Below are positions 36,501 to 64,000 of a DNA stretch of 64,000 bases, in pieces. Source of the DNA: the human T2T-CHM13v2.0 reference genome, Homo sapiens; NCBI RefSeq assembly GCF_009914755.1, contig NC_060933.1; one strand, 5' to 3'. The stretch's first letter is position 1. Every line of letters starts with the position of its first letter. The position numbers and the translations under genes were made by a program. The notes beneath the pieces were generated by a model that was not told the origin of the DNA, ran no database searches, and worked only from the letters and a program-made list of their open reading frames with translations.

Positions 36501-39500
36501 AATGGAATCAACCCGACTGCAGGGGAATAGAATGGAATGGAATGCAATGGAATGGATTCAACTTGAATGGAATGGAAAGAATGGAATCAACACGAGTGGA
36601 ATGGCATGGATTGGAATGGAATGGAATGGAATCAACCCGACTACAGTGGAATGGAATGGAATGGAATGCAATGGAATGGAATCATCCGTAATGGAATGGA
36701 AAGGAATGCAATGGAATGGAATGGAATGGAATGGAATGTAATGGAATCAACTCGATTGAAATCGAATGGAATGGAATGGAGTTAACCCGAATAGAATGGA
36801 ATGGAATGGAATGGAACGGAACGGAACGGAAGGGAACGGAATGGAATGGAATGGAATGGAATGGAATGGAATGGAATGGAATGGAGAGGAATGGAATGGA
36901 ATGGAATGGAATGGAATCAACGCGAGTGCAGGGGAATGGAATGGAATGGAATGCAATGGAATGGAATCTTCCGGAATGGAATGGAATGGAATGGAATGGA
37001 ATGGAATGGAATGGAATGGAATAAACCCGAGTGCAATGGAATAGAGTGGAATGGAATGGAATGGAATGGAACAACCCGAATGGAATGGAGTGTAATGGAG
37101 ACTAAGGGAGTTGAATAGAATCTATCCGAATGTAATGGAATGCAATGGAACGGAATGGAATTGAATGGAATGGAATGGAATGGAATGCAATGGAATGGAA
37201 TCAACCCGAGTGCAATGGAATGGAGAGGAATGGAATGGAATGCAATGGAAACTACGCGAATGGAATGGAATGTAATGGAGTGTAAGGGAATTGAATAGAA
37301 TCAATCCGAATGTAATGGAATGGAATGGAACGGAATGGAATGGAATGGAATGGAATGGAATGGAATGAAATGGAATGGAATCAACCCGAGTGCAATCGAA
37401 TGGAATCGAATGGAATGGAATGCAATGGAATGGATTCAACTTGAATGGAATGGAAAGAATGGAATCAACACGAGTGGAAGGGCATGGATTGGAATGGAAT
37501 GGAATGGAATCAACCCGAGTACAGGGGAATGGAATGGAATTTAATGCAATGGAATGGAATCATCCGTAATGGAATGGAAAGGAATGGAATGGAATGGAAT
37601 GGAATGGAATGGAATGGAATCAACACGATTGCAATCGAATGGAATGGAATGGAATTAACCCGAATAGAATGGAATGGAATGGAATGGAAGAGAACGGAAT
37701 GGAATGGAATGGAATGGAATGGAACGGAACGGAACGGAACGGAACGGAACGGAATGGAATGGAATGGAATGGAATGGAATGGAATCAACGCGAGTGCAGG
37801 GGAATGGAATGGAATGGAATGCAATGGAATGGAATCTTCCGGAATGGAATGGAATGGAATGGAATGGAATGGAATGAAATGCAATGGATTCAACTCGATT
37901 GCAATGGAATGGAATAGAATGGAATGGAATGGAATGGAATGGAATTACCCCGAATAGAATGGAATGGAATGGAATGGAACGGAACGGAACGGAATGGAAT
38001 GGAATGGAATGGAATGGAATGGAATGGAATGCAATGGTATGGAATGGAATGGAATGGTACGGAATAGAATGGAATGGAAAGAATTGTAATGGAATGGAAT
38101 TGAATGGAATGGAATGGAATGGAATGGAATCAACGCGAGTGCAGGGGAATGTAATGGAACGGAATGCAATGGATTGGAATCATCCGGAATGGAATGGAAT
38201 GGAATGGAATGGAATGGAATGGAATCAACCCGAGTGCAATGGAATGCAGTGGAATGGAATGGAATGGAATGGAACAACCCGAATGGAATGGAATGTAATG
38301 GAGAGTAACGGAGTTGAATAGAATCAATCCGAATGTAATGGAATGGAATGCAACGGAATGGAATGGAATGGAATGGAATGGAATGGAATGGAATGCAAAG
38401 GAATGGAATCAACCCGAGTGGAATGGCATGGAATGGAATGCAATGGAATGGAAGTTAATGGAATCAACTCGAGTGGAAAGGAATGGAATGGAATGGAAAG
38501 GAATGGAATGAGATCAAGTCGAGTGGAATGGAATGGAATGGAATGGATTGGAATGGATTGCAACGAAATGAAATCGAATGGAATGGAATGGAATCAATCA
38601 TTCCGAGTAGAATGGAAGGGATTGTAATGGAGTGGAAAGAAGGGAATGGAATCAACCCGATTGGAATGCAAGGCAATGGAATGGAATGGAAAGGAATGGA
38701 ATGCAATCAACTCGATTGCAATGGAATGGAATGGAATGGAATGGAATGGAATGGAATGGAATTAACCGGAATAGAATGGAATGCAATGGAATGGAACGGA
38801 ATGGAATGGAATGGAAGGTAATGGAATCAACACGAGTGCAGGGGAATGGAATGGAATGGAATGCAATGGAATGGAATCATCCGGAATGGAATGGAATGGA
38901 ATGGAATCAACTCCATTGTAATGGAATGGAATGGAATGGAATGGAATAGAATGGAATGGAATTAACCCGAATAGAATGGAATGCAATAGAATGTAATGGA
39001 ACGGAACCGAATGGAGTGGAATGGAATGGAATGGAATCAACATGAGTGCAGGGGAATGGAATGGAATGGAATGCAATGGAATGGAATCATCCGGAATGGA
39101 ATGGAATGGAATGGAATGGAATCAAACCGAGTGCAATGGAATGGTGTGAAATGGAATGGAATGGAATGGAAACAACCTGAATGGATTGGAATATAATGGA
39201 GTGTAAGGGAATTGAATAGAATCAATCTGAATGTAATGAAATGGAATGGAACGGAATGGAATGGAATGGAATGGAATCGAATGGAATGGAATGGAATGGA
39301 ATCAACCCGAGTGCAATGGAATGGATTCGAATGGAATGGAATGGAGTGGAATGGATTCAACTTAAATGGAATGGAAAGAATGGAATCAACACGAGTGGAA
39401 TGGCATGGAATGGAATGGAAAGGAATGGCGTGGAATGGAATGGAATGGTTCGGAATAGAATGGATTGGAACAAAATGGAATGGAATGGAATGGAATGGAA

Positions 39501-42067: not shown

Positions 42068-45000
42068 CCCGAATAGAATGGAATGGAATGGAACGGAATG
42101 GAACGGAACGGAACGGAACGGAATGGAATGGAATGGAATGGAATGGAATGGTATGGAATGGAATGGAATGGAATGGAGTCAACGCGAGTGCAGGGGAATG
42201 TAATGGAACGGAATGCAATGGAATGGAATCATCCGGAATGGAATGGAATGGAATGGAATGGAATGGAATGGAATGGAGTCAACCCGAGTGCAATGGAATG
42301 GAGTGGAATGGAATGGAATGGAATGGAACAACCCGAATGGAATGGAATGTAATGGAGAGTAAGGGAGTTGAATAGAATCAATCCGAATGTAATGGAATGG
42401 AACGGAATGGAATGGAATGGAATGGAATGGAATGGAATGGAATGGAATGGAATGCAAAGGAATGGAATCAACCCGAGTACAATGGAATGGAATGGAATGG
42501 AATGGAATGGAATGGAATGGAATCCACCCGAGTGCAATGGAATGGAGAGGAATGGAATGGAATGGAATGGAAACTACCCGAATGGAATGGAATGTAATGG
42601 AGTGTAAGGGAATTGAATAGAATCAATCCGAATGGAACGGAATGGAATGGAACGGAATTTAATGTAATGGAATGGAATGGAATCAACCCGAGTGCAGGGG
42701 AATGGAATGGAATGGAATGCAATGGAATGGAATCATCCGGAATGGAATGTAATGGAATGCAATGGAATGGAATGGAATGGAATCAACCCGAGTGCAATGG
42801 AATGGAGTGAAATGGAATGGAATGGAATCGAATGGAAACAACCAGAATGGATTGGAATATAATGGAGTGTAAGGGAGTTGAATAGAATCAATCTGAATGT
42901 AATGAAATGGAATGGAACGGAATGGAATGCAATGGAATGGAATGGAATGGAATGGAATGCAATGGAATGGAATCAACCCGAGTACAGGGGAATGGAATGG
43001 AATGGAATGCAATGGAATGGAATCATCCGTAATGGAATGGAAAGCAATGGAATGGAATGGAATGGAATGGAATGGAATGGAATGGAATGGAATGGAATGG
43101 AATCAACTCGATTGCAATCGAATGGAATGGAATGGAATTAACCCGAATAGAATGGAATGGAATGGAATGGAATGGAACGGAAAGGAATGGAATGGAACGG
43201 AATGGAATGGAATGGAATGGAACGGAACGGAATGGAATGGAATGGAATTGAATGGAATGGAATGGAATCAACCCAACTGCAGGGGAATGGAATGGAATGG
43301 AATGCAATGGAATGGAATCATGCGGAACGGAATGCAATGGAATGGAATGGAATCAACACGAGTGCAATGGAATGGATTGGAATGGAATGGAATGGAATGG
43401 AATGGAACTACCCGAATGGAATGGAATGTAATGGAGAGTAAGGGAGTTGAATAGAATCAATCCGAATGTAATGGAAAGGAATGGAAAGGAATGGAATGGA
43501 ATGGAATGGAATGCAATGGAATGGAATCAAACCGAGTACAATGGATTGGAATGGAATGGAATGGAATGGAATGGAATGGAATCAACACGAGTGCAATGGA
43601 ATGGAGTGGAATGGAATGGAATGGAATGGAACAACGCGAATGGAATGGAATGTAATGGAGAGTAAGGGAGTTGAATAGAAACAATCCGAATGTAATGGAA
43701 TGGAACGGAATGGAATGGAATGGAATGGAATGGAATGGAATGGAATGGAATGCAATGGAAGGGAATCAACCCGAGTACAATGGAATGGAATTGAATGGAA
43801 TGGAATGGAATGGAATGGAAACAATGGAATGGAATCAACCCGAGTGCAATGGAATGGAGAGGAATGGAATGGAATGGAATGGAAACTACCCGAATGGAAT
43901 GGAATGTAATGGAGTGTAAGGGAATTGAATAGAATCAATCCAAATGGAATGGAATGGAATGGAACGGAATGTAAAGAATGGAATGGAATGGAATCAACGC
44001 GAGTGCAGGGGAATGGAATGGAATGGAATGCAACGGAATGGAATCATCCGGAATGGAATGGAATGGAATGCAATGGAATGGAATGGAATGGAATCAACCC
44101 GAGTGCAATGGAATGGAGTGAAATGGAATGGAATGGAATGGAAACAACCAGAATGGATTGGAATATAATGGAGTGTAAGTGAATTGAATAGAATCAATCT
44201 GAATGTAATGAAATGGAATGGAACGGAATGGAATGGAATGGAATGGAATTGAATGGAATGGAATGGAATGCAATGGAATGGAATCAACCCGAGTGCAATC
44301 GAATGGAATCGAATGGAATGGAATGCAATGGAATGGATTCAACTTGAATGGAATGGAAAGAATGGAATCAACACGAGTGGAATGGCATGGATTGGAATGG
44401 AATGGAATGGAATCAACCCGAGTACAGGGGAATGGAATGGAATGGAATGCAATGGAATGGAATCATCCGTAATGGAATGGAAAGGAATGCAGTGGAATGG
44501 AATGGAATGGAATGGAATCAACTCGATTGCAATCGAATGGAATGGAATGGAATTAACCCGAATAGAATGGAATGGAATGGAATGGAACGGAACGGAATGG
44601 AATGGAATGGAATGGAATGCAACGGAACGGAACGGAATGGAATGGAATGGAATGGAATGGAATGGAATGGAATGGAATCAACGCGAGTGCACGGGAATGG
44701 AATGGAATGGAATGCAATGGAATGGAATCTTCCGGAATGGAATGGAATGGAATGGAATGGAATGGAATGGAATGGAATCAACCCGAGTGCAATGGAATGG
44801 AGTGGAATGGAATGTAATGGAATGGAACAACCCGAATGGAATGGAATGGAATGGAGAGTAAGGGAGTTGAATAGAATCAATCTGAATGGAATGGAATGGA
44901 ATGGAACGGAATGGAATTGAATGGAATGGAATGGAATGCAATGGAATGGAATCAACCCGAGTGCAATGGAATGGAGAGGAATGGAATGGAATATAATGGA

Positions 45001-48000
45001 ATGGAACAACCCGAATGGAATGGAATGGAATGGAGAGTAAGGGAGTTGAATAGAATCAATCCGAATGGAATGGAATGGAATGGAACGGAATGGAATTGAA
45101 TGGAATGGAATGGAATGCAATGGAATGGAATCAACCCGAGTGCAATGGAATGGAGAGGAATGGAATGGAATGGAATGGAAACTACCCGAATGGAATGGAA
45201 TGTAATGGAGTGTAAGGGAATTGAATAGAATCAATCCGAATGTAATGGAATCGAATGGAAAGGAATGGAATGGAATGGAATGGAATGGAATGGAATGGAA
45301 TGGAATGGAATGCAATGGAATGGAATCAACCCGAGTGCAATCGAATGGAATCGAATGGAATGGAATACAATGGAATGGATTCAACTTGAATGGAATGGAA
45401 AGAATGGAATCAACACGAGTGGAATGGCATGGATTGGAATGGAATGGAATGGAATCAACCCGAGTACAGGGGAATGGAATGGAATGGAATGCAATGGAAT
45501 GGAATCATCCGTAATGGAATGGAAAGGAATGGAATGGAATGGAATGGAATGGAATGGAATGGAATGGAATGGAATGGAATCAACTCGATTGCAATCGAAT
45601 GGAATGGAATGGAATTAACCCGAATAGAATGGAATGGAATGGAATGGAACGGAACGGAATGGAATGGAATGGAATGGAATGGAATGGAATGGAATCAACG
45701 CGAGTGTAGGGCAATTGAATGGAATGGAATGTAATGGAATGGAATCTTCCGGAATGGAATGGAATGGAATGGAATGGAATGGAATGGAATCAACTCGATT
45801 GCAATCGAATCGAATGGAATGGAATTAACCCGAATAGAATGGAATGGAATGGAATGGAACGGAACGTAATGGAATGGAATGGAATAGAATGGAATGGAAT
45901 GGAATGGAACGGAACGGAATGGAATGGAATGGAATGGAATCAACGCGAGTGCATGCGAATGGAATGGAATGGAATGCAATGGAATGGAATCTTCCGAAAT
46001 GGAATGGAATGGAATGGAATGGAATGAAATGCAATGGGTTCAACTCGATTGCAATGGAATGGAACAGAATGGAATGGAATGGAATGGAATGGAATTAATT
46101 CGAATAGAATGGAATGGAATGGAATGGAACGGAATGAAACGGAATGGAATGTAATGGAATGGAATTGTATGGAACGGAATGGAATGGTACGGAATAGAAT
46201 GGAATGGAAAGAATTGTAATGGAATGGAATTGAATGGAATGGAATGGAATGGAATGGAATGGAATCAACGCGAGTGCAGGGGAATGTAATGGAACGGAAT
46301 GCAATGGAATGGAATCATCCGCAATGGAATGGAATGGAATGGAATGGAATGGAATGGAATGGAATGGAATCAACCCGAGTGCAATGGAATGGAGTGGAAT
46401 GGAATGGAATGGAACAACCCGAATGGAATGGAATGTAGCGGAGAGTAAGGGAGTAGAATAGAATCAATCCGAATGTAATGGAATGGAATGCAACGGAATG
46501 GAATGGAATGGAATGGAATGGAATGCAATGGAATTGAATCAACCCGAGTACAATGGAATGGAATGGAATGGAATGGAATGGAAGGGAATGGAATGGAATG
46601 GAATGATACGGAACAGAATGGAATGGAACGAAATGGAATGGAATGGAATGGAATGCAATGGAATGGAATGGAATGGAATGGAATGGAATGGAATCGTTCC
46701 GAGTGGAATAGGAGGGAAAGTATTCGAGTGGAATGGAAAGGAATGGAATCAACCAGAATGGAATGGAAGGGAATGGAATGGAATGGATACTAATAGAATG
46801 GAATCAACCCGAGAGGAATGGAATGGAAAGGACTGGAATGGAATGGAATGGAATGGAATCAACTCGATTGTAATGGAATGGAATGGAATGAAATGGAATG
46901 GAATGGAATTAACCCGAATACAATGCAATGGAATGGAATGGAACGGAATGGAGTGGAATGGAATGGAATCAACCCGAGTGCAGGGGAATGGAATGGAATG
47001 GAATGCAATGGAATGGAATCATCCGGAATGGAATGGAATGGAATGGAATGCAAAGCAATGGAATCAACTCGATTGCAATGGAATGGAATGGAATGGAAAG
47101 GAATACATTGGAATCAACCCGAGTGGAATGGAATGGAAAGGACTGGAATGGAGTGGAATGGAATGGAATGGAATGGAATGGAATGGAATGGAATCAACTC
47201 GATTGGAATGGAATGGAATGGAATGGAATGGAATGGAATGGAATTAACCCGAATAGAATGGAATGGAATGGAATGGAACGGAAAGGAACAGAATGGAATG
47301 GAATGGAATGGAATGGAATGGAATGGAATGGAAACAACCCGACTGCAGGGGAATGGAATGGAATGGAATGCAAAGGAATGGATTCAACTTGAATGGAATG
47401 GAAAGAATGGAATCAACACGAGTGGAATGGCATGGATTGGAATGGAATGGAATGGAATCTACCCGAGTACAGGGGAATGGAATGGAATGGAATGCAATGG
47501 AATGGAATGGAATGGAATGGAATGGAATCAACTCGATTGCAATCGAATGGAATGGAATGGAATTAACCCGAATAGAATGGAATGGAATGGAATGGAACGG
47601 AACGGAACGGAATGAAATGGATTTGAATGGAATGGAATGGAATGGAATGGAACGGAAAGGAATGGAATGGAATGGAATGGAATGGAATGGAATGGAATGG
47701 AATGGAATCAACGCGAGTGCAGGGGAATGGAATGGAATGGAATGCAATGGAATGGAATCTTCCGGAATGGAATGGAATGGAATGGAATGGAATGGAACGG
47801 AATAAACCCGAGTGCAATGGAATGGAGTGGAATGGAATGGAAATGAATGGAACGGAACAAACCCGAGTGCAATGGAATGGAGTGGAATGGAATGGAATGG
47901 AATTGAACAACCCGAATGGAATGGAATGTAATGGAGAGTAAGGGAGTTGAATAGAATGAATCCGAATGTAATGGAATGGAATGGAACGGAATGGAATTGA

Positions 48001-51000
48001 ATGGAATGGAATGGAATGCAATGGAATGGAATCAACCCGAGTTCAATGGAATGGATAGGAATGGAATGGAATGGAATGGAAACTACCCGAATGGAATGGA
48101 ATGTAATGGAGTGTAAGGGAATTGAATAGAATCAATCCGAATGTAATGGAATGGAATAGAACGGAATGGAATGGAATGGAATGGAATGGAATGGAATGCA
48201 ATGGAATGGAATCAAACCGAGTGCAATCGAATGGAATCGAATGGAATGGAATGCAATGGAATGGATTCAACTTGAATGGAATGGAAAGAATGGACTCAAC
48301 ACGAGTGGAAGGGCATGGATTGGAATGCAATGGAATGGAATCAACCCGAGTACAGGGGAATGGAATGGAATGGAATATAATGGAATGGAATCATCCGTAA
48401 TGGAATGGAAAGGAATGGAATGGAATGGAATGGAATGGAATGGAATGGAATGGAATCAACTCGATTGCAATTGAATGGAATGGAATGGAATTAACCCGAA
48501 TAGAATGGAATGGAATGGAATGGAATGGAATGGAACGGAAAGGAAGGGAATGGAATGGAATAGAATGGAATGGAATGGAATCAACGCGAGTGCAGGGGAA
48601 TGGAATGGAATGGAATGCAATGGAATGGAATCTTCCGGAATGGAATGGAATGGAATGGAATGGAATGGAATGGGATCAACCGGAGTGCAATGGAATGGAG
48701 TGGAATGGAATGGAATGGAATGGAATAACCCGAATGGAATGGAATGTAATGGAGAGTAAGGGAGTTGAATAGAATCAATCCGAATGTAATGGAATGGAAT
48801 GGAACGGAATGGAATTGAATGGAATGGAATGGAATACAATGGAATGGAATCAACCCGAGTTCAATGGAATGGAGAGGAATGCAATGGAATTGAATGGAAA
48901 CTACCCGAATGGAATGGAATGTAATGGAGTGTAAGGGAATTGAATAGAATCAACCCGAATGTAATGGAATGGAATGGAACGGAATGGAATGGAATGGAAT
49001 GGAATGGAATGGAATGGAATGCAATGGAATGGATTCAACTTGAATGGAATGGAAAGAATGGAATCAACACGAGTGGAATGGCATGGATTGGAATGGAATG
49101 GAATGGAATCAACCCGAGTACAGGGGAATGGAATGGAATGGAATGCAATGGAATGGAATCATCCGTAATGGAATGGAAAGGAATAGAATGGAATGGAATG
49201 GAATGGAATCAACTCGATTGCAATCGAATGGAATGGAATGGAATTAACCCGAATAGAATGGAATTGAATGGAATGGAACGGAACGGAATGGAATGGAATG
49301 GAATGGAATGGAACGGAAAGGAAGGGAATGGAATGGAATAGAATGGAATGGAATGGAATCAACGCGAGTGCAGGGGAATGGAATGGAATGGAATGCAATG
49401 GAATGGAATCATCCGTAATGGAATGGAAAGGAATGGAATGGAATGGAATGGAATGGAATGGAATGGAATCAACTCGTTTGCAATCGAATGGAATGGAATG
49501 CAATTAACCCGAATAGAATGGAATGGAATGGAATGGAATGGAACGGAACGGAATGGAACGGAACGGAGTGCAATGGAATGGAATGGAATTGTATGGAATG
49601 GAATGGCATGGTACGGAATAGAATGGAATGGAAAGAATTGGAATGGAATGCAATCGAATGGAATGGAATGGAATGGAATGGAATCAACCCGAGTGCAGGG
49701 GAATGTAATGGAAAGGAATGAAATGGAATGGAATCATCCGGAATGGAATGGAATGGAATGGAATGGAATGGAATGGAATGGAATGGAATGGAATCAACCC
49801 GAGTGCAATGGAATGGAGTGGAATGGAATGGAATGGAATGGAACAACCCGAATGGAATGGAATGTAATGGAGAGTAAGGGAGTTCAATAGAATCAATCCG
49901 AATGTAATGGAATGGAACGGAATGGAATGGAATGGAATGGAATGGAATGCAATGGAATGGAATCAACCCGAGTACAATGGAAAGGAATGGAATGGAATGC
50001 AATGGAATGGAATGGAATGGAATGGAATGGAATGGAATGGAATCAACCCGAGTGCAATGGAATGGAGAGGAATGGAATGGAATGGAATGGAAACTACCCG
50101 AATGGAATGGAATGTAATGGAGCGTAAGGGAATTGAATAGAATCAATCCGAATGGAATGGAATGGAATGGAACGGAATGTAATGGAATGGAATGGAATGG
50201 AATCAACCCGAGTGCAGACGAATGGAATGGAATGGAATGCAATGGAATGGAATCATCCGGAATGGAATGGAATGGAATGCAATGGAGTGGAATGGAATGG
50301 AATCAACCCGAGTGCAATGGAATGGAGTGAAATGGAATGGAATGGAATGGAAACAACCAGAATGGATTGGAATATAATGGACTGTAAGGGAATTGAATAG
50401 AATCAATCTGAATGTAATGAAATGGAATGGAACGGAATGGAATGGAATGGAATGGAATGGAATGGAATGCAATGTAATGGAATCAACCCGAGTGCAATCG
50501 AATGGAATCGAATGGAATGGAATGCAATGGAATGGATTCAACTTGAATGGAACGGAAAGAATGGAATCAACACGAGTGGAATGGCATGGATTGGAATGGA
50601 ATGGAATGGAATCAACCCGAGTACAGGGGAATGGAATGGAATGGAATGCAATAGAATGGAATCATCAGTAATGGAATGGAAAGGAATGGAAAGGACTGGA
50701 ATGGAATGTAATGTAATGGAATGGAATGGAATCAACTCGATTGCAATCGAATGGAATGGAATGGAATGGAATCAACTCGATTGCAATCGAATGGAATGGA
50801 ATGGAATTAACCCGAATAGAATGGAATGGAATGGAATGGAACGGAACGGAATGGAATGGAATGGAACGGAACGGAATGGAATGGAACGGAAAGGAATGGA
50901 ATGGAATGGAATGGAATGGAATGGAATGGAATGGAATGGAATCAACGCGAGTGCAGGGGAATGGAATGGAATCGAATGGAATGGAAAGGAATGGAATGGA

Positions 51001-52859
51001 ATCAACCCGATTGCAGGGGAATGTAATGGAACGGAATGCAATGGAATGGAATCATCCGGAATGGAATGGAATGGAATCAACCCGAGTGCAATGGAATGGA
51101 GTGGAATGGAATGGAATGGAATGGAACAACCCGAGTACAATGGAATGGAATGGAATGGAATGGAATGGAATGGAATGCAATGGAATGGAATCTTCCGGAA
51201 TGGAATGGAAAGGAATGGAATGGAATGGAATGGAATTCAATGGATTCAACTCGATTGCAATGGAATGGAATAGAATGGAATGGAATGGAATGGAATGGAA
51301 TGGAATTAAACCGAATAGAATGGAATGGAACGGAACAGAACGGAACGGAACGGAACGGAGTGGAATGGAATGGAATGGAATTGTATGGAATGGAATGGAA
51401 TGGTACGGAATAGAATGGAATGGAAAGAATTGTAATGGAATGGAATGGAATGGAATGGAATGGAATCAACCCGAGTGCAGGGGAATGTAATGGAACGGAA
51501 TGCAATGGAATGGAATCATCCGGAATGGAATGGAATGGAATGGAATGGAATGGAATGGAATGGAATCAACCCGAGTGCAATGGAATGGAGTGGAATGGAA
51601 TGGAATGGAATGGAACAACCCGAATGGAATGGAATGTAATGGAGAGTAAGGGAGTTGAATAGAATCAATCCGAATGTAATGGAATGGAACGGAATGGAAT
51701 GGAATGGAATGGAATGGAATGGAATGGACTGGAATGCAATGGAATGGAATTAACCCGAGTACAATGGAACGGAATGGAATGGAATGTAATGGAATGTAAT
51801 GGAATGGAATGGAATGGAATGGAATGGAATGGAATGGAGTCAACCCGAGTGCAATGGAATGGAGAGGAATGGAATGGAATGGAATGCAATGGAATGGAAT
51901 CATCCGGAATGGAATGTAATGGAATGGAATGCAAAGCAATGGAATCAACTCGATTGCAATGGAATGGAATGAAATGGAATGGAAAGGAATACATTGGAAT
52001 CAACCCGAGTGGAATGGAATGGAAAGGACTGGAATGGAGTGGAATGGAATGGAATGGAATGGAATGGAATCAACTCTATTGGAATGGAATGGAATGGAAT
52101 GGAATGGAATGGAATGGAATTAACCCGAATAGAATGGAATGGAATGGAATGGAATGGAACGGAATGGAATGGAATGGAATGGAATGGAAGGGAATGGAAT
52201 GGAATGGAAACAACCCGACTGCAGGGGAATGGAATGGAATGGAATGGAATGGAATGATACGGAATAGAATGGAATGGAACGAAATGGAATGGAATGGAAT
52301 GGAATGGAATGGATTGGAATGGAATGGAATCGTTCCGAGTGGAATAGGAGGGAATGTATTCGAGTGGAATGGAAAGGAATGGAATCAACCAGAGTGGAAT
52401 GGAAGGGAATGGAATGGAATGGAAACTAATAGAATGGAATCAACCCGAGTGGAATGGAATGGAAAGGACTGGAATGGAATGGAATGGAATGGAATCAACT
52501 CGATTGTAATGGAATGGAATGGAATGGAATGGAATGGAATCAACCCGAGTACAATGGAATGGAATGGAATGGAATGGAATGGAATGGAATGGAATGGAAT
52601 GGAATGATACGGAATAGAATGGAATGGAACGAAAGGGAATGGAATGGAAGGGAATGGAATGGAATGGAATGGAAAGGAATGGAATGGAATCGTTCCGAGT
52701 GGAATAGGAGGGAATGTATTCGAGTGGAATGGAAAGGAATGGAATCAACCAGAGTGGAATGGAATGGAATGGAATGGAATGGAATGGAATGGAATGCAAT
52801 GGAATGGAATCAAACCGAGTGCAATCGAATGGAATCGAATGGAATGGAATGCAGTGGAA

Positions 52860-55800
52860 TGGATTCAACTTGAATGGAATGGAAAGAATGGAATCAACAC
52901 GAGTGGAATGGCATGGATTGGAATGGAATGGAATGGAATCAACCCGAGTACAGGGGAATGGAATGGAATGGAATGCAATGGAATGGAATCATCCGTAATG
53001 GAATGGAAAGGAATGGAATGGAATGGAATGGAATGGAATGGAATGGAATCAACTCGATTGCAATCGAATGGAATGGAATGGAATTAACCCGAATAGAATG
53101 GAATGGAATGGAATGGAACGGAACGGAATGGAATGGAATGGAATGGAATGGAATGGAATGGAACGGAAAGGAAGGGAATGGAATGGAATAGAATGGAATG
53201 GAATGGAATCAACGCGAGTGCAGGGGAATGGAATGGAATGGAATGCAATGGAATGGAATCTTCCGGAATGGAATGGAATGGAATGGAATGGAATGGAATA
53301 AACCCGAGTACAATGGAATGGAGTGGAATGGAATGGAATGGAATGGAACAACCCGAATGGAATGGAATGTAATGGAGAGTAAGGGAGTTGAATAGAATCA
53401 ATCCGAATGTAATGGAATGGAATGGAACGGAATGGAATTGAATGGAATGGAATGGAATGCAATGGAATGGAATCAACCCGAGTGCAATGGAATGGAGACG
53501 AATGGAATGGAATGGAATGGAAACTACCCGAATGGAATGGAATGTAATGGAGTGTAAGGCAATTGAATAGAATCAATCCGAATGTAATGGAATGGAATGG
53601 AACGGAATGGAATGGAATGGAATGGAATGGAATGGAATGGAATGGAATGCAATGGAATGGAATCAACCCGAGTGCAATCGAATGGAATCGAATGGAATGG
53701 AATGCAATGGAATGGATTCAACTTGAATGGAATGGAAAGAATGGAATCAACACGAGTGGAACGGCATGGATTGGAATGGAATGGAATGGAATCAACCCGA
53801 GTACAGGGGAATGGAATGGAATGGAATGCAATGGAATGGAATCATCCGTAATGGAATGGAAAGGAATGGAATGGAATGGAATGGAATGGAATGGAATGGA
53901 ATCAACTCGATTGCAATCGAATGGAATGGCATGGAATTAACCCGAATAGAATGGAATGGAATGGAACGGAACGGAATGGAATGGAATGGAATGGAACGGA
54001 ACGGAATGTAATGGAATGGAATGGAATGGAATCAACGCGAGTGCAGGGGAATGGAATGGAATGGAATGCAATGGAATGCAAACTTCCGGAATGGAATGGA
54101 ATGGAATGGAATGAAATGCAATGGATTCAACTCGATTGCAATGGAATGGAATAGAATGGAATGGAATGGAATGGAATGGAATTAATCCGAATAGAATGGA
54201 ATGGTATGGAATGGAATGGAAAGGTACGGAATAGAATGGAATGGAACGAATTGTAATGGAATGGAATTGAATGGAATGGAATGGAATGGAATGGAATCAA
54301 CACGAGTGCAGGGGAATGTAATGAAACGGAATGCAATGGAATGGAATCATGCGGAATGGAATGGAATGGAATGGAATGGAATGGAATGAAATGGAATGGA
54401 ATCAACCCGAGTGCAATGGAATGGAGTGGAATGGAATGGAATGGAATGGAACAACCCGAATGGAATGGAATGTAATGTAGAGTAAGGGAGTTGAAGAGAA
54501 TCAATCCGAATGTAATGGAATGGAATGCAACGGAATGGAATGGAATGGAATGGAATGGAATGCAATGGAATGGAATCAACCCGAGTACAATGGAATGGAA
54601 TGGAATGGAATGGAATGGAATGGAATGGAATGGAATGGAATAGAATGATACGGAATAGAATGGAATGGAACGAAATGGAATGGAATGGAATGGAATCGTT
54701 CTGAGTGGAATAGGAGGGAATGTATTCGAGTGGAATGGAAAGGAATGGAATCAACCAGAGTGGAATGGAAGGGAATGGAATGGAATGGAAACTAATAGAA
54801 TGGAATCAACCCGAGTGGAATGGAATGGAAAGGACTGGAATGGAATGGAATGGAATGGAATCAACTCGATTGTAATGGATTGGAATGGAATGGAATGGAA
54901 TGGAATTAACCCGAATACAATGGAATGGATTGGAATGGAATGGAATGGAGTGGAATGGAATGGAATCAACCCGAGTGCAGGGGAATGGAATGGAATGGAA
55001 TGCAATGGAATGGAATCATCCGGAATGGAATGGAATGGAATGGAATGCAAAGCAATGGAATCAACTCGATTGCAATGGAATGGAATGGAATGGAAAGGAA
55101 TACATTGGAATCAACCCGAGTGGAATGGAATGGAAAGGACTGGAATGGAGTGGAATGGAATGGAATGGAATGGAATGGAATTGAATGGAATCAACTTGAT
55201 TGAAATGGAATGGAATGGAATGGAATGGAATGGAATGGAATCAACCCGACTGCAGGGGAATGGAATGGAATGGAATGCAATGGAATGGATTCAACTTGAT
55301 TGGAATGGAAAGAATGGAATCAACACGAGTGGAATGGCATGGATTGGAATGGAATGGAATGGAATCAACCCGAGTACAGGGGAATGGAATGGAATGGAAT
55401 GCAATGGAATGGAATCATCCGTAATGGAATGGAAAGGAAAGGAATGGAATGGAATGGAATGGAATGGAATGGAATGGAATGGAATGGAATCAACTCGATT
55501 GCAATCGAATGGAATGGAATGGAATTAACCCGAATAGAATGGAATGGAATGGAATGGAACGGAACGGAACGGAACGGAATGGAATGGAATGGAATGGAAT
55601 GGAATGGAATGGAACGGAACGGAAAGGAAGGGAATGGAATGGAATGGAATGGAATGGAATGGAATGGAATCAACGCGAGTGCAGGGGAATGGAATGGAAT
55701 GGAATGCAATGGAATGGAATCTTCCGGAATGGAATGGAATTGAATGGAATGGAATGGAATGGAATGGAATAAACCCGAGTGCAATGGAATGGAGTGGAAT

Positions 55801-58800
55801 GGAATGGAATGGAATGGAACAACCCGAATGGAATGGAATGTAATGGAGACTAAGGGAGTTGAATAGAATCAATCCGAATGTAATGGAATGGAATGGAACG
55901 GAATGGAATTGAATGGAATGGAATGGGATGCAATGGAATGGAATCAACCCGAGTACAATGGAATGGAATGGAATGGAATGGAATGGAATGGAATGGAATC
56001 AACCCGAGTGCAATGGAATGGAGTGGAATGGAATGGAATGGAATGGAACAACCCGAATGGAATGGAATGTAATGGAGAGTAAGGGAGTTGAATAGAATCA
56101 ATCCGAATGTAATGGAATGGAATGGAATTGAATGGAATGGAATGGAATGCAATGGAATGGAATCAACCCGAGTGCAATGGAATGGAGTGGAATGGAATGG
56201 AATGCAATGGAACAACCCGAATGGAATGGAATGTAATGGAGAGTAAGGGAGTTGAAAAGAATCAATCCGAATGGAATGGAATGGAATGGAACGGAACAGA
56301 ATGGAATGGAATGGAATGGAATGGAATGGAATGGAATGGAATGCAATGGAATGGAATCAACCCGAGTACAATGGAATGGAATGGAATGGAATGGAATGGA
56401 ATGGAATGGAATGCAATGGAATGGAATCTTCCGGAATGGAATGGAATGGAATGGAATGGAATGGAATGGAATGCAATGGATTCAACTCGATTGCAATGGA
56501 ATGGAATAGAATGGAATGGAATGGAATGGAATGGAATGGAATTAAACGGAATAGAATGGAATGGAATGGAATGGAACGGAACAGAACGTAACGGAACGGA
56601 ACGGAGTGGAATGGAATGGAATGGAATTGTATGGAATGGAATGGAATGGTACGGAATAGAATGGAATGGAAAGAATTGGAATGGAATGGAATGGAATGGA
56701 ATGGAATGGAATGGAATGGAATCAACCCGAGTGCAGGGGAATGTAATGGAACGGAATGCAATGGAATGGAATCATCCGGAATGGAATGGAATGGAATGGA
56801 ATGGAATGGAATGGAATGGAATCAATCTGAGCGCAATGGAATGGAGTGGAATGGAAGGGAAAGGAATGGAACAACCCGAATGGAATGGAATGTAATGGAG
56901 AGTAAGGGAGTTGAATAGAATCAATCCGAATGTAATGGAATGGAACGGAATGGAATGGAATGGAATGGAATGGAATGGAATGGAATGGAATGGAATGCAA
57001 TGGAATGGAATCAACCCGAGTGCAATTGAATGGAATCCAATGGAATGGAATGCAATGGAATGGATTCAACTTGAATGGAATGGAAAGAATGGAATCAACA
57101 CGAGTGGAATGGCATGGATTGGAATGGAATGGAATGGAATCAACCCGAGTATAGGGGAATGGAATGGTATGGAATGCAATGGAGTGGAATCATCCGTAAT
57201 GGAATGGAAAGGAATGGAATGGAATGGAATGGAATGGAATGGAATGGAATGGAATCCACTCGATTGCAATCGAATGGAATGGAATGGAATTAACACGAAT
57301 AGAATGGAATGGAATGGAATGGAACGGAACGGAATGGAATGGAATGGGATGGAATGGAATGGAACGGAAAGGAAGGGAATGGAATGGAATAGAATGGAAT
57401 GGAATGGAATCAACGCGAGTGCAGGGGAATGGAATGGAATGGAATGCAATGGGATGGAATCTTCCGGAATGGAATGGAATGGAATGGAATGGAATGGAAT
57501 GGAATGGAATCCACCCGAGTGCAATGGAATGGAGTGGAATGGAATGGAATGGAATGGAACAACCCGAATGGAATGGAATGTAATGGAGAGTAAGGGAGTT
57601 GAATAGAATCAATCCGAATGTAATGGAATGGAATGGAACGGAATGGAATTGAATGGAATGGAATGGAATGCAATGGAATGGAATCAACCCGAGTGCAATG
57701 GAATGGAGAGGAATGGAATGGAATGGAATGGAAACTACCCGAATGGAATGGAATGTAATGGAGTGTAAGGGAATTGAATAGACTCAATCCGAATGTAATG
57801 GAATGGAATGGAACGGAATGGAATGGAATGGAATGGAATGGAATTGAATGCAATGGAATGGAATCAACCCGAGTGCAATCGAATGGAATCCAATGGAATG
57901 GAAAGCAATGGAATGGATTCAACTTGAATGGAATGGAAAGAATGGAATCAGCACGAGTGGAATGGCATGGATTGGAATGGAATGGAATGGAATCAACCCG
58001 AGTACAGGGGAATGGAATGGAATGGAATGCAATGGAATGGAATCATCCGTAATGGAATGGAAAGGAATGGAATGGAATGGAATGGAATGGAATGGAATGG
58101 AATCAACTCGATTGCAATCGAATGGAATGGAATGGAATTAACCCGAATAGAATGGAATGGAATGGAATGGAACAGAACGGAATGGAATGGAATGGAACGG
58201 AATGGAATGGAATGGAATGGAATGGAATGGAATGGAATGGAATCAACGCGAGTGCAGGGGAAAGGAATGGAATGGAATGCAATGGAATGGAATCTTCCGG
58301 AATGGAATGGAATGGAATGGAATGGAATGAAATGCAAAGGATTCAACTCGATTGCAATGGAATGGAATAGAATGGAATGGAATGGAATGGAATGGAATTA
58401 ATTCGAATAGAATGGAATGGAATGGAATGGAACGGAATGGAACGGAATGGAATGGAATGGAATGGTATGGAATGGAATGGAATGGTACGGAATAGAATGG
58501 AATGGAACGAATTATAATGGAATGGAATTGAATGGAATGGAATGGAATGGAATGGAATCAACGCGAGTGCAGGGGAATGTAATGGAACGGAATGCAATGG
58601 AATGGAATCATCCGGAATGGAATGGAATGGAATGGAATGGAATGGAATCAACCCGAGTGCAATGGAATGGAGTGGAATGGAATGGAATGGAATGGAACAA
58701 CCCGAATGGAATGGAATGTAATGTAGAGAAAGGGAGTTGAATAGAATCAATCCGAATGTAATGGAATGGAATGCAACGGAATTGAATGGAATGGAATGGA

Positions 58801-59170
58801 ATGGAATGAAATGGAATTGAATCAACCCGAGTACAATGGAATTGAATTGAATGGAATGGAATGGAATGGAATGGAATGGAATGGAATGATACAGAATAGA
58901 ATGGAATGGAATGAAATGGAATGGAATGGAATGGAATGGAGTGGAATGGAATGGAATGGAATGGAATCGTTCCGAGTGGAATAGGAGGGAATGTATTCGA
59001 GTGGAATGGAAAGGAATGGAAAAAACCTGAGTGGAATGGAAGGGAATGGAATGGAATGGAAACTAATAGAATGGATTCAACCCGAGAGGAATGGAATGGA
59101 AAGGACTGGAATGGAATGGAATGGAATGGAATCAACTCGATTGTAATGGAATTGAATGGAATGGAATGGA
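52860..59170 (-). repeat. ~4.2-kb higher-order duplication (~52.86-54.9 kb matches ~57.06-59.17 kb)
   Basis: ttcaacttg markers 52863/57064 and 53716/57917 (both offset 4201); gtaatgtagag ~54470/~58718; cgttc[t/c]gagtggaataggaggg ~54697/~58968. Confidence 0.7.
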
Positions 59171-62100
59171 ATGGAATTAGCCCGAATACAATGCAATGGA
59201 ATGGAATGGAACGGAATGGAGTGGAATGGAACGGAATCAACCCGAGTGCAGGGGAATGGAATGGAACGGAATGCAATGGAATGGAATCATCCGGAATGGA
59301 ATGGAATGGAATGGAATGCAAAGCAATGGAATAAACTCGATTGCAATGGAATGGAATGGAATGGAAAGGAATATATTGGAATCAACCCGAGTGGAATGGA
59401 ATGGAAAGGACTGGAATGGAGTGGAATGGAATGGAATGGAATGGAATGGAATCAACTCGATTGGAATGGAATGGAATGGAATGGAATGGAATGGAATCGT
59501 TCCGAGTGGAATAGGAGGGAATGTATTCGAGTGGAAAGGAAAGGAATGGTATCAACCAGAGTGGAATGGAAGGGAATGGAATGGAATGGAAACTAATAGA
59601 ATGGAATCAACCTGAGTGGAATGGAATGGAAAGGACTGGAATGGAATGGAATGGAATGGAATCAACTCGATTGTAATGGAATGGCATGGAATGCAATGGA
59701 ATGGAATGGAATTAACACGAATACAATGGAATGGAATGGAATGGAACGGAATGGAGTGGAATGGAATGGAATCAACCCGAGGGCAGGGGAATGGAATGGA
59801 GTGGAATGCAATGGAATGGAATCATCCGGAATGGAATGGAATGGAATGGAATGCAAAGCAATGGAATCAACTCGATTGCAATGGAATGGAATGGAATGGA
59901 AAGGAATACATTGGATTCAACCCGAGTGGAATGGAATGGAAAGGACTGGAATGGAGTGGAATGGAATGGAATGGAATGGAATGGAATGGAATCAACTCGA
60001 TTGGAATGGAATGGAATGGAATTAACACGAATAGAATGGAATGGAATGGAATGGAACGGAATGGAATGGAATGGAATGGAATGGAATGGAATGGAATGGA
60101 ATCAACCTGACTGCAGGGGAATGGAATGGAATGGAATGCAATGGAATGGATTCAACTTGAATGTAATGGAAAGAATGGAATCAACACGAGTGGAATGGCA
60201 TGGATTGGAATGGAATGGAATGGAATCAACCCGAGTACAGGGGAATGGAATGGAATGGGATGCAATGGAATGGAATCATCCGTAATGGAATGGAAAGGAA
60301 AGGAATGGAATGGAATGGAATGGAATGGAATGGAATGGAATCAACTCGATTGCAATCGAATGGAATGGAATGGAATTAACCCGAATAGAATGGAATGGAA
60401 TGGAATGGAACGGAACGGAACGGAACGGAATGGAATGGAATGGAATGGAACGGAAAGGAATGGAATGGAATGGAATGGAATGGAATGGAATGGAATGGAA
60501 TGGAATGGAATCAACGCGAGTGCAGGGGAATGGAATGGAATGGAATGCAATGGAATGGAATCTTCCGGAATGGAATGGAATTGAATGGAATGGAATGGAA
60601 TAAACCCTAGTGCAATGGAATGGAGTGGAATGGAATGGAATGGAATGGAATAATCCGAATGGAATGGAATGTAATGGAGACTAAGGGAGTTGAATAGAAT
60701 CAATCCGAATGTAATGGAATGGAATGGAACGGAATGGAATGGAATGGAATGGAATGGAATGGAATGGAATGGAATGCAATGGAATGGAATCAACCCGAGT
60801 GCAATCAAATGGAATCGAATGGAATGGAATGCAAAGGAATGGATTCAACTTGAATGGAATGGAATAAATGGAATGAACACGAGTGGAATGGCATGGATTG
60901 GAATGGAATGGAATGGAATCAACCCGAGTACAGGGGAATGGAATGGAATGGAATGCAATGGAATGGAATCATCCGTAATGGAATGGAAACGAATGGAATG
61001 GAATGGAATGGAATGGAATGGAATGGAATGGAATCAACCCGAGTGCAATGGAATGGAGTGGAATGGAATGGAATGGAATGGAACAACCCGAATGGAATGG
61101 AATGTAATGGAGAGTAAGGGAGTTGAATAGAATCAATCCGAATGTAATGGAATGGAACGGAATGTAATGGAATGGAATGGAATGGAATGGAAAGGAATGG
61201 AATGCAATGGAATGGAATCAACCCGAGTACAATGGAATGGAATGGAATGGAATGGAATGGAATGGAATGGAATGGAATCCACCCGAGTGCAATGGAATGG
61301 AGAGGAATGGAATGGAATGGAATGGAAACTACCCGAATGGAATGGAATGTAATCGAGTGTAAGGGAATTGAATAGAATCAATCCGAATGGAATGGAATGG
61401 AATGGAACGGAATGTAATGGAATGGAATGGAATGGAATGGAATCAACCCAAGTGCAGGGGAATGGAATGGAATGGAATGCAATGGAATGGAATCATCCGG
61501 AATGGAATGTAATGGAATGCAATGGAATGGAATGGAATGGAATCAACCCGAGTGCAATGGAATGGAGTGAAATGGTATGGAATGGAATGGAAACAACCAG
61601 AATGGATTGGAATATAATGGAGTGTATGGGAATTGAATAGAATCAATCTGAATGTAATGAAATGGAATGTAACGGAATGGAATGGAATGCAATGGAATGG
61701 AATGGAATGGAATGCAATGGAATGGAATCAACCCGAGTGCAATCGAATGGAATCGAATGGAATGGAATGCAATGGAATGGATTCAACTTGAATGGAATGG
61801 AAAGAATGGAATCAACACGAGTGGAATGGCATGGATTGGAATGCAATGGAATGGAATCAACCCGAGTACAAGGGAATGGAATGGAATGGAATGCAATGGA
61901 ATTGAATCATCCGTAATGGAATGGAAAGGAATGGAATGGAATGGAATGGAATGGAATGGAATGGAATGGAATGGAATCAACTCGATTGCAATCGAATGGA
62001 ATGGAATGGAATTAACCCGAATAGAATGGAATGGAAAGGAATGGAACGGAACGGAATGGAATGGAATGGAATGGAATGGAATGCAATGGAATGGAAAGGA

Positions 62101-64000
62101 AAGGAATGGAATGGAATGGAATGGAATGGAATGGAATGGAATGGAATCAACGCGAGTGCAGGGGAATGGAATGGAATGGAATGCAATGGAATGTAATCTT
62201 CCGGAATGGAATGGAATGGAATGCAATAGATTCAACTCGATTGCAATGGAATGCAATAGAATGGAATAGAATGGAATGGAAAGGAATGGAACGGAACAGA
62301 ATGGAATGGAATGGGATGGAATAGAATGGAATGGAATGGAATGGAACGGAACGGAATGGAATGGAATGGAATGGAATGGAATGGAATGGAATGGAATTGT
62401 ATGGAATGGAATGGTATGGTACGGAATTGAATGGAATGGAAAGAATTGGAATGGAATGGAATCGAATGGAATGGTATGGAATGGAATGGAATGGAATGGA
62501 ATCAACCCGAGTGCAGGGGAATGAAATGGATCGGAATGCAGTGGAATGGAATCATCCGGAATTGAATGGAATGGAATGAAATGGAATGGAATCAACCCCA
62601 GTGCAATGGAATGGAGTGGAATGGAATGGAATGGAATGGAACAACAGGAATGGAATGGAATGGAATGGAGAGTAAGGGAGTTGAATAGAATCAACCCGAA
62701 AGTAATGGAATGGAATGGAACGTAATGGAATGGAATGGAATGCAATGGAATGGAATCAACCCGAGTAAAATGGAATAGAATGAAATGGAATGGAATGGAA
62801 TGGAATTGAATGGAATGGAATGGAATGCAATGGAATGCAATCAACCAGAGTGCAATGGAATGGAGAGGAATGGAATGGAATGGAATGGAAACTACCCGAA
62901 TGGAACGAAATGTAATGGAGTGTAAGGGAATTGAAAAGAATCAATCCGAATGTGATGGAATGGAATGGAACGGAATGGAATGGAATGGAATGGAATGGAA
63001 TGGAATGGAATGGAATGCAATAGAATGGAATCAACCCGAGTGCAATCGAATGGAATCGAATGGAATGGAATGCAATGGAATGGATTCAACTTGAATGGAA
63101 TGGAAAGAATGGAATCAACACGAGTGGAAGGGCATGGATTGGAATGCAATGGAATGGAATCAACCCGAGTACAGGGGAATGGAATGGAATGGAATGCAAT
63201 GGAATGGAATCATCCGTAATGGAATGGAAAGGAATGGAATGGAATGGAATGGAATGGAATGGAATGCAATGGAATGGAATCAACACGATTGCAATCGAAT
63301 GGAATGGAATGGAATTAACCCGAATAGAATGGAATGGAATGGAATGGAACGGAACGGAATGGAATGGAATGGAATGGAACGGAATGGAATGGAAAGGAAT
63401 GGAATGGAATGGAATGGAATGGAATGGAATGGAATCAACGCGAGTGCAGGGGAATGGAATGGAATGGAATGCAATGGAATGGAATGGAATAAACCCGAGT
63501 GCAATGGAATGGAGTGGAATGGAATGGAATGGAATGGAGCAACCCGAACGGAATGGAATGTAATGGAGAGTAAGGGAGTTGAATAGAATCAATCCGAATG
63601 TAATGGAATGGAATGGAACGGAATGGAATTGAATGGAATGGAATGGAATGCAATGGAATGGAATCAACCCGAGTGCAATGGAATGGAGAGGAATGGAATG
63701 GAATGGAATGGAAACTACCCGAATGGAATGGAATGTAACGGAGTGTAAGGGAATTGAATAGAATCAATCCGAATGTAATGGAATGGAATGGAACGGAATG
63801 GAATGGAATGGAATGGAATGCAATGGAATGGAATGCAATGGAATGGAATCAACCCGAGTGCAATCGAATGGAATCGAATGGAATGGAATGCAATGGAATG
63901 GATTCAACTTGAATGGAATGGAAAGAATGGAATCAATACGAGTGGAAGGGCATGGATTGGAATGCAATGGAATGGAATCAACCCGAGTACAGGGGAATGG

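What the first reader, a model, noticed from the sequence alone, without database searches (positions are those of the whole stretch)
36963..60571. One substitution turns a satellite variant into an array of perfect heat-shock elements, confined to the distal sub-domain
Seen: the common variant ggaat-cAtcc-ggaat (attccggatgattcc on the left arm) becomes ggaat-cTtcc-ggaat in at least 16 places. These are usually just downstream of caacgcgagtgcagggg, and degenerate copies occur at ~45986, ~54080 and ~62193. I saw none before 36.9 kb. Known: HSF1 trimers bind alternating nGAAn/nTTCn units, whereas plain (GGAAT)n offers only head-to-tail nGAAn. HSF1 drives SatIII transcription and nuclear stress bodies, mainly at 9q12. 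Inference: this variant could be the sequence determinant that makes specific HSat3 sub-domains high-affinity HSF1 platforms. Its central CCGG might make the site methylation-sensitive.
Basis: partly seen in the sequence, partly recalled or inferred. Interest (0 to 1): 0.8.

Follow-up and report, generated by a model that had tools for sequence, protein, structure and literature searches.

The report
Perfect heat-shock elements in 9q12 satellite
One 15-base perfect binding site for the heat-shock factor HSF1 recurs about every 2 kb through most of the giant chromosome 9 satellite, so the sites are real but array-wide rather than special to this spot, and the general idea is already in print.

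Summary
GGAATCTTCCGGAAT occurs 16 times, all on the + strand, from 36,963 to 60,571. These are the only nGAAnnTTCnnGAAn sites in the window.

"Confined to the distal sub-domain" is true only within the window. The same 15-mer occurs 12,700 times in the assembly. It is absent from contigs 1-8, and it was present in 20 of 23 sampled stretches of the main chr9 array between 49.2 and 76.5 Mb, at about 0.45 per kb.

The window straddles a boundary at about 33.7 kb between two sequence types:
- A minority HSE-free type. It surrounds a strand-switch junction that is itself repeated 72 times on chr9.
- The majority HSE-bearing type.

The T variant sits almost only on a CAACGCGAGT haplotype, in 54 of 55 modules. 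That supports one A-to-T change followed by amplification.

HSF1 binding was not tested here. In print already:
- HSF1 motifs in sub-regions of HSat3 that match heat-shock ChIP-seq, with a motif score for every chr9 piece (Franklin et al.).
- Perfect HSEs in Y-chromosome SatIII.
- "Putative HSEs" at 9q12.

The exact 15-mer and its one-step origin were not found in print. Verdict: real, probably functional, incremental.

The parts
36963..36977 (+). perfect 3-unit HSE GGAATCTTCCGGAAT, copy 1
   Evidence: 45 nt after CAACGCGAGTGCAGGGG at 36,918
37831..37845 (+). HSE copy 2
40036..40050 (+). HSE copy 3 (marker variant ...GCAGGGC)
41210..41224 (+). HSE copy 4 (740-bp tandem twin of copy 5)
41950..41964 (+). 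HSE copy 5
44724..44738 (+). HSE copy 6 (marker variant ...GCACGGG)
45741..45755 (+). HSE copy 7 (marker variant ...GTAGGGC)
47754..47768 (+). HSE copy 8
48627..48641 (+). HSE copy 9
51187..51201 (+). HSE copy 10, in the other context (after CAACCCGAGTACAATGG and a long GGAAT run)
53255..53269 (+). HSE copy 11
55716..55730 (+). HSE copy 12
56423..56437 (+). HSE copy 13, in the other context (as copy 10)
57456..57470 (+). HSE copy 14
58289..58303 (+). HSE copy 15
60557..60571 (+). HSE copy 16
45986..46000 (+). degenerate copy GGAATCTTCCGAAAT (third unit lost), same module
54078..54092 (+). degenerate copy GCAAACTTCCGGAAT (first unit lost), same module
62193..62207 (+). degenerate copy GTAATCTTCCGGAAT (first unit lost), same module
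33700..64000 (+). type 1 HSat3 block: HSE-bearing, carries the CAACGCGAGTG marker, about 26 CpG per kb. This is the majority type of the chr9 array.
   Evidence: k-mer typing against 23 other chr9 loci; the first marker is at 34,701
1..33700 (.). type 2 HSat3 block: no HSE, no inverted GAA/TTC pair, about 21 CpG per kb, CATCC form only. It runs off the left end of the window.
25756..25800 (+). head-to-head strand-switch junction (ATTCC run to GGAAT run) inside the type 2 block; one of 72 identical copies on chr9

Best explanation
What it is. The 16 sites are copies of one 15-bp canonical trimeric heat-shock element, GGAAT-CTTCC-GGAAT (nGAAn-nTTCn-nGAAn). It sits at a fixed place in a SatIII module: CAACGCGAGTGCAGGGG, then 28 nt of GGAAT-like pentamers, then the HSE.

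How it arose (shown and inferred from the sequence).
- It arose from the widespread CATCC form by a single A-to-T change.
- That change happened on a haplotype already marked by C-to-G in the CAACCCGAGT 'terminator' box.
- Satellite amplification then carried it to about 12,700 copies, roughly one per 2 kb, through the majority sequence type of the ~27 Mb HSat3B5 array at 9q12.
- The window happens to straddle a boundary at about 33.7 kb between that majority type and a minority HSE-free type. The minority type surrounds a recurrent strand-switch junction.

How it most likely works (inferred, not shown here).
- On heat shock each site docks one HSF1 trimer with high affinity.
- The flanking head-to-tail GGAAT units supply only weak extra contacts.
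- The thousands of sites together make 9q12 the large HSF1 platform that seeds nuclear stress bodies and drives G-rich SatIII transcription.
- HSE-free blocks should be bound much less.
For: Shown here:
- All nine core bases match the HSE consensus, and these are the only such sites in 64 kb.
- The TTC-CG-GAA step is pyrimidine-purine and each GAA is preceded by G. Both are the favoured states in the HSF-DNA trimer structures (Feng 2021, section 11 read).
- This one 15-mer makes up 101 of 115 canonical 3-unit HSEs found in the window plus 28 chr9 samples.
- Genome-wide there are 12,700 copies against 0 and 3 for the backwards control, and none on contigs 1-8 on either strand.
- Of two thinned sub-patterns, one gave 68 of 68 hits on C9. 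The other gave its first 100 of 222 hits on C9, and the other 122 were not listed.
- Density is 85 copies in 190 kb over 23 sampled loci, or 0.45 per kb.
- Haplotype nesting is G-T 54 against C-T 1.

From papers:
- HSF1 motifs lie in sub-regions of HSat3, and heat-shock HSF1 ChIP-seq is enriched where motif density is high (Franklin et al., passages and the Fig. 2 legend).
- Their SEA table gives a median score of 10.0 for HSF1 over all 235 chr9 B5 pieces.
- Recombinant HSF1 binds 9q12 SatIII DNA directly in vitro (Jolly 2002, passages).
- Perfect HSEs in Y-chromosome SatIII go together with HSF1 ChIP signal there (Penin 2021, passages).
Against: - I examined no binding data for this k-mer.
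- In the Franklin table, HSat3A1 (median 22.3), A2 (14.6) and Y-chromosome A6 (16.1) score higher for HSF1 motifs than B5 (10.0), yet 9q12 is the classical primary site. Motif presence therefore cannot be the whole story; array size and chromatin must count.
- HT1080 cells form stress bodies on the Y chromosome and not on chr9 (Penin 2021), although chr9 satellite carries these sites in this assembly.
- HSF1 DBD has been co-crystallised on head-to-tail SatIII repeats (cited in Feng 2021), so plain GGAAT is not inert.
- The T variant is in near-complete linkage with a marker of no known function. Neutral co-amplification is therefore enough to explain its abundance.
- The HSE core is not measurably better conserved than its flanks: 3 of 360 against 48 of 2,880 mismatches, Fisher p = 0.36, at low power.
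Confidence: 0.7

Rival explanations
1. Neutral passenger. The A-to-T change is one of many variants fixed by satellite amplification. HSF1 recruitment to 9q12 comes mainly from the huge mass of head-to-tail GGAAT units and from chromatin state, and the CTTCC sites add little.
For: - T is tightly linked to the CAACGCGAGT marker (54 of 55 modules).
- There is no detectable extra conservation of the HSE core.
- HSF1 DBD crystallised on head-to-tail SatIII repeats (Feng 2021 introduction).
- HSF1 shifts the pHuR98 probe in vitro, though only above 12.5 ng against 3 ng for the HSE probe (Jolly 2002). I could not see the pHuR98 sequence.
- Subfamilies with higher motif scores are only secondary sites.
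Against: - HSF1 trimers prefer three inverted units, and the co-crystal trimer contacts require that geometry (Feng 2021).
- Franklin et al. report ChIP-seq signal following motif density, whereas GGAAT itself is evenly spread.
- Satellite II and alpha satellite gave no shift (Jolly 2002).
Confidence: 0.2
2. The same substitution creates an ETS-type core on the other strand (CCGGATG becomes CCGGAAG). On this reading the relevant binder is an ETS-family factor, classically CpG-methylation-sensitive (recalled, not checked), rather than HSF1, or as well as HSF1.
For: - The reverse complement reads ATTCCGGAAGATTCC, as the sequence shows directly.
- In the Franklin SEA table, ELK4 and ETS1 are non-zero almost only in chr9 B5 columns, with values of about 1.2-3.5 (columns 1-355 and 1-346 of 490 were shown).
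Against: - Those scores are low against 10 for HSF1.
- The base after GGAAG is A, not the T of the class I consensus (the consensus is recalled).
- The authors state that ETS motifs are not heavily enriched in HSat3.
- I saw no ChIP evidence.
Confidence: 0.05
3. Inert motif. The sites are perfect on paper but are not occupied in cells, because they are buried in methylated constitutive heterochromatin.
For: - HT1080 cells show no HSF1 foci at 9q12 without HSF1 overexpression (Penin 2021).
- The CpG sits next to the contacts before GAA, where a thymine methyl group is modelled as not tolerated (Feng 2021). This gives only a rationale for 5mC sensitivity, not a test of it.
Against: 9q12 is the classical HSF1 focus in most cell types, and ChIP-seq maps to motif-dense HSat3.
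Confidence: 0.05

Closest known systems
HSF1-motif-dense sub-regions of HSat3 arrays (Franklin et al., bioRxiv 2024/2025, PMC11526998)
   Same: It uses the same assembly and the same arrays. JASPAR HSF1 motif hits were tabulated for every chr9 HSat3B5 piece, and heat-shock HSF1 ChIP-seq was reported to follow motif density.
   Different: In what I read (passages, legends, supplementary tables) the paper gives no sequence of the site, no derivation from the CATCC form and no description of HSE-free block types. I could not see its figures, so I do not know which array its Fig. 2b shows.
Perfect HSEs in Yq12 SatIII (DYZ1, HSat3A6; Penin et al. 2021, PMC7889540)
   Same: These are canonical HSEs interspersed in SatIII, proposed as direct HSF1 sites and backed by ChIP-PCR.
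   Different: The chromosome and subfamily differ. The density there is four per 3,564 bp (about 1.1 per kb) against about 0.45 per kb here. I did not see the Y-chromosome HSE sequences.
Proximal HSE of the HSP70 promoter, as the EMSA probe printed in Jolly 2002
   Same: It has the same inverted pentamer logic. The probe reads nGAAn-nTTCn-nGACn, with GGAAT as its first unit.
   Different: The promoter element sits in a single-copy promoter with an imperfect third unit. The satellite site has three perfect units, no known core promoter beside it, and about 12,700 copies.
Head-to-tail SatIII repeats as the HSF1 DBD substrate (Neudegger 2016, as cited in Feng 2021)
   Same: It concerns the same satellite and the same protein domain.
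   Different: That model uses direct GGAAT repeats. The site here is the inverted three-unit arrangement that a trimer prefers.

Membership tests
Canonical trimeric heat-shock element (HSE) | Three contiguous pentamers of alternating orientation, nGAAn-nTTCn-nGAAn | tested here: met
   16 of 16 sites match, and they are the only matches in 64 kb
Canonical trimeric heat-shock element (HSE) | Favoured auxiliary bases: a pyrimidine-purine step between TTC and GAA, and a purine (not T) before each GAA | tested here: met
   The site reads TTC-CG-GAA, and G precedes GAA in all three units read on their own strands. The criteria come from Feng 2021, section 11.
Canonical trimeric heat-shock element (HSE) | Occupied by HSF1 trimers on heat shock | not testable with these tools
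   Only region-level published evidence is available. No reads were at hand.
Canonical trimeric heat-shock element (HSE) | Confers heat-inducible transcription on adjacent DNA | not testable with these tools
   SatIII G-rich RNA rises about 10^4-fold on heat shock (Valgardsdottir 2008, passages), but this has not been tied to these sites.
Human satellite 3, chr9 main array (HSat3B5) | (GGAAT)n runs separated by CAAC(C/A)CGAGT-type boxes, located in the 9q12 block | tested here: met
   About 110 GGAAT or ATTCC per kb throughout; 175 (+) and 88 (-) CAACNCGAGT boxes; the window lies at C9:57.10-57.17 Mb inside the sampled array.
Human satellite 3, chr9 main array (HSat3B5) | Assignment by the subfamily-specific k-mers of Altemose 2014 | not tested
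   I did not have the k-mer sets. The B5 label rests on the column names of the Franklin table (235 chr9 B5 pieces) and on Altemose 2021.
ETS class I binding site | CCGGAAGT core | tested here: not met
   The reverse strand reads CCGGAAGA, so 7 of 8 bases match and the last does not. The consensus is recalled, not taken from a call.

The most novel reading that the evidence does not exclude
A single A-to-T change, amplified about 12,700-fold, is what turned the human 9q12 block into the cell's dominant HSF1 sink and stress-body seed.
- The junction-associated HSE-free blocks cut the array into separately bound domains.
- Methylation of the CpG at the TTC-CG-GAA step gates trimer binding. This would explain why some cells (for example HT1080) use Yq12 instead of 9q12.
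Probability: 0.2. Interest if true: 0.6.

Novelty: already known. Interest (0 to 1): 0.3.

Why it matters
The finding supplies an exact sequence handle for an old question: what HSF1 actually grips at 9q12.

- There is one 15-mer, at about 12,700 copies and about 0.45 per kb. It is apparently specific to chr9.
- The CATCC form, one base away, has 20,563 copies and serves as a built-in control.
- HSE-free type 2 blocks serve as internal negative regions.

These make read-level tests of existing HSF1 ChIP-seq data simple. They also give a number to set beside the Y-chromosome density of about 1.1 per kb.

None of this changes the accepted picture, and the concept is already published.

Tried and rejected
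- Array sampling. I planned 100 samples of 10 kb along chr9.
- Contigs 10-24. The hit lists show only the first 100 places, so I could not list the full 15-mer there. I rely on two thinned patterns (the first 100 of 222 hits are all on C9; 68 of 68 on C9) and on density times span matching the total.
- Selection test. HSE core against flanks in 60 G-T modules was inconclusive.
- Methylation. A literature search for HSF1 sensitivity to CpG methylation listed 15 of 22 papers, none of which, by title or abstract, addressed HSF1 binding to methylated HSEs.
- pHuR98. I could not find its sequence to check whether the classical EMSA probe holds the HSE. I read passages of Jolly 2002 and 2004.
- Papers not held. 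Altemose 2022 in Science and Rizzi 2004 were not held. I used the bioRxiv version of the former.
- Two 2026 papers on HSATIII say nothing about the site's sequence in the passages found.
- Rejected ideas. A STAT-type site fits poorly, because the spacing here is TTC-2-GAA rather than the TTC-3-GAA that I recall for STAT sites. A palindromic duplication of the two arms is unlikely, because bins either side of the junction share only 0.17-0.31 of their 24-mers.
Full report
OBSERVATION

- GGAATCTTCCGGAAT occurs 16 times, all on the + strand, between 36,963 and 60,571. None of 100 dinucleotide shuffles produced a match.
- The one-base neighbour GGAATCATCCGGAAT occurs 41 times: 17 on the - strand in the left arm and 24 on the + strand.
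- The window changes strand at 25,765/25,775, from ATTCC runs to GGAAT runs.
- The 16 sites are the only matches to nGAAnnTTCnnGAAn in the window.
- Every inverted GAA/TTC pair in all 64 kb belongs to these sites or to the three degenerate copies at 45,986, 54,078 and 62,193.
- Fourteen of the 16 sites lie exactly 45 nt after a CAACGCGAGTG box. Two (51,187 and 56,423) lie after CAACCCGAGTACAATGG and a longer GGAAT run.

WHAT THE SUB-DOMAIN IS

Two sequence types emerge.
- Type 1 has the HSE, the CAACGCGAGTG box and about 26 CpG per kb. It covers the window from about 33.7 kb to the end.
- Type 2 has no HSE, only the CATCC form and about 21 CpG per kb. It covers 1 to about 33.7 kb.
- The switch is sharp. 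Type-2-private 20-mers stop in the 33,601-33,700 bin, and type-1-private ones dominate from 33,701 on.
- The strand switch at 25.77 kb lies inside type 2, not at the type boundary. The first HSE at 36,963 is simply the first T-module of a type 1 block whose first marker box is at 34,701.

ARRAY-WIDE PICTURE

The window's assembly could be searched.
- The 15-mer occurs 12,700 times (6,460 and 6,240 by strand). The backwards control gave 0 and 3.
- The lists are ordered by contig, and neither strand has a hit on contigs 1-8. The first hit is at C9:49,162,019.
- The CATCC form occurs 20,563 times.
- Other bases at the first n of the TTC unit, GGAAT[A/G/T]TTCNGGAAT, total only 773, and the 100 listed hits are scattered along contigs 1-9.

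I sampled 10 kb every 300 kb from 47.7 to 53.4 Mb, and 5 kb at eight points from 56 to 76.5 Mb.
- Of the 23 samples of the main array (L006-L028), 20 hold the HSE: 85 copies in 190 kb, or 0.45 per kb.
- Three samples hold none (L006, L017, L023), and they cluster with the window's type 2.
- L004, at 48.6 Mb, is a third type with neither 15-mer.
- 12,700 copies over the 27.3 Mb from 49.16 to 76.5 Mb is 0.46 per kb, so chr9 can account for essentially all copies.
- Two thinned patterns agree. (GGAAT)3-CTTCC-GGAAT has 222 hits, and the first 100 all lie at C9:49.40-62.79 Mb. With seven GGAAT units behind the TTC unit, all 68 of 68 hits lie at C9:50.95-75.89 Mb.
- I could not list the full 15-mer on contigs 10-24.

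The HSE-bearing type is therefore the rule in this array, and the HSE-free 33.7 kb of the window is the exception.

THE HSE-FREE BLOCK

- The 45-nt head-to-head junction at window 25,756-25,800 recurs 72 times. All copies are on C9 between 52.3 and 76.0 Mb, in both orientations.
- At one other copy (L029, C9:74.266 Mb) the layout repeats: ATTCC-oriented type 2, the junction, about 2.4 kb of GGAAT-oriented type 2, then type 1 with an HSE.
- That makes 2 of 2 junction copies examined.
[quoted passage not shown] 2021 preprint, passages). Many of the chr9 ones appear to be copies of one event.

ORIGIN OF THE SITE

Across the window and 24 chr9 samples, 256 modules carry an exact CAACNCGAGTGCAGGGG box. 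For modules with C or G at the variable box base and an intact 15-mer frame at +45, the box base and the centre base pair as follows:

| Box base | Centre base | Modules |
|---|---|---|
| C | A | 98 |
| G | A | 32 |
| G | T | 54 |
| C | T | 1 |

- T is nested within the G haplotype. Together with the wider spread and larger number of the CATCC form, this supports the order C-to-G first and A-to-T second, followed by amplification. The order is an inference from nesting, not a dated tree.
- This one 15-mer is 101 of the 115 canonical HSEs in all the sequence I held. Most of the rest are one-base derivatives, four of them with CpG turned to TpG.
- I found no sign that the core is better kept than its flanks: 3 of 360 against 48 of 2,880 mismatches, p = 0.36, with low power.

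FUNCTION

The site meets the consensus at all nine core bases. It also has the favoured pyrimidine-purine step in TTC-CG-GAA and a G before each GAA (Feng 2021, section 11).

Published work supports the functional reading.
- Recombinant HSF1 binds 9q12 SatIII DNA in vitro, more weakly than a promoter HSE probe (Jolly 2002, passages).

The median HSF1 SEA scores in their supplementary table are:

| HSat3 subfamily | Median HSF1 SEA score | Pieces |
|---|---|---|
| chr9 B5 | 10.0 (IQR 9.0-10.6) | 235 |
| Y-chromosome A6 | 16.1 | 43 |
| A1 | 22.3 | 27 |
| A2 | 14.6 | 29 |
| A4 | 0 | 90 |

Three points follow.
- The motif is spread evenly over B5 pieces.
- The higher score for the Y chromosome fits the four HSEs per 3,564 bp reported there (Penin 2021), against about 0.45 per kb here.
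- Motif score alone does not rank 9q12 first. Size (27.6 Mb) and chromatin must matter.

Two cautions apply. Much of the field describes SatIII as a head-to-tail substrate (Feng 2021 introduction), and a 2022 review mentions 9q12 HSEs only as an unpublished observation.

I put 0.7 on these sites being real high-affinity HSF1 docking points, 0.2 on a neutral passenger, and 0.05 each on an ETS-type reading and on inert sites. The reverse strand reads CCGGAAG, and ELK4 and ETS1 score weakly, almost only in B5 columns.

METHYLATION

The CpG lies at the two n positions between TTC and GAA. Feng 2021 model a thymine methyl group before GAA as not tolerated. That gives a structural reason to expect an effect of 5-methylcytosine, but my search found no test of it. 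The claim stays open.

NOVELTY

- The exact 15-mer, its reverse complement and two 12-mers cut from them were searched for. No paper in the library holds either 15-mer, and the four papers that hold a 12-mer are unrelated.
- The concept is in print, however: canonical HSEs embedded in SatIII, HSF1 motifs confined to parts of HSat3 arrays and matching ChIP-seq, and per-piece motif scores for this same assembly.
- I rate it already known in kind, with modest interest.

Noticed in passing
window 25,756-25,800; C9:52.3-76.0 Mb; L029:5,124: The head-to-head strand-switch junction is not unique. The exact 45-mer occurs 72 times on chr9 in both orientations. At a second copy the same layout recurs: type 2 flanks, then type 1. 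Many of the strand-switch breakpoints reported for the chr9 array may therefore be copies of one event.
   Followed up: partly
C9:57.1-60.7 Mb vs 67.7-71.4 Mb; C9:52.9-54.5 Mb vs 61.65-63.3 Mb: There are megabase-scale duplications inside the array. Junction copies and thinned HSE hits recur in the same order and strand at offsets of 10.62-10.66 Mb (9 and 13 pairs) and 8.72-8.83 Mb (10 pairs). The window's own junction has a partner at C9:67,744,023.
   Followed up: partly
window 1-25,770 (- strand arm): The left arm shows a higher-order period of about 10.18-10.2 kb. Shared 40-mers peak at distances of 10,179 and 10,194, and at 2,304.
   Followed up: no
window 1-33,700 vs 33,700-64,000; L006, L017, L023 vs other loci: CpG density differs by block type, at about 20-21 per kb in type 2 and about 25-28 per kb in type 1. 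Part of the excess comes from the CGCG box and the HSE module.
   Followed up: partly
C9:49,820,487-49,846,141: HSE positions repeat with a 14,033-14,048 bp period, nine HSEs per unit. This shows local nested tandem repeats much longer than the module.
   Followed up: no
window 41,210 and 41,950: Two HSE modules with identical 70-nt upstream and 50-nt downstream context lie 740 bp apart. 740 is also the commonest shared-40-mer distance in the right part of the window.
   Followed up: no
L004 (C9:48,600,001-48,610,000): This is a third GGAAT-rich type with neither 15-mer and no CAACGCGAGTG box. It may be one of the chr9 HSat3B3 pieces named in the Franklin table header.
   Followed up: no
Franklin et al. 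supplementary file 3, rows ELK4 and ETS1: Weak ETS-motif scores (about 1.2-3.5) appear almost only in the chr9 B5 columns. This fits the CCGGAAG core on the reverse strand of the HSE.
   Followed up: partly
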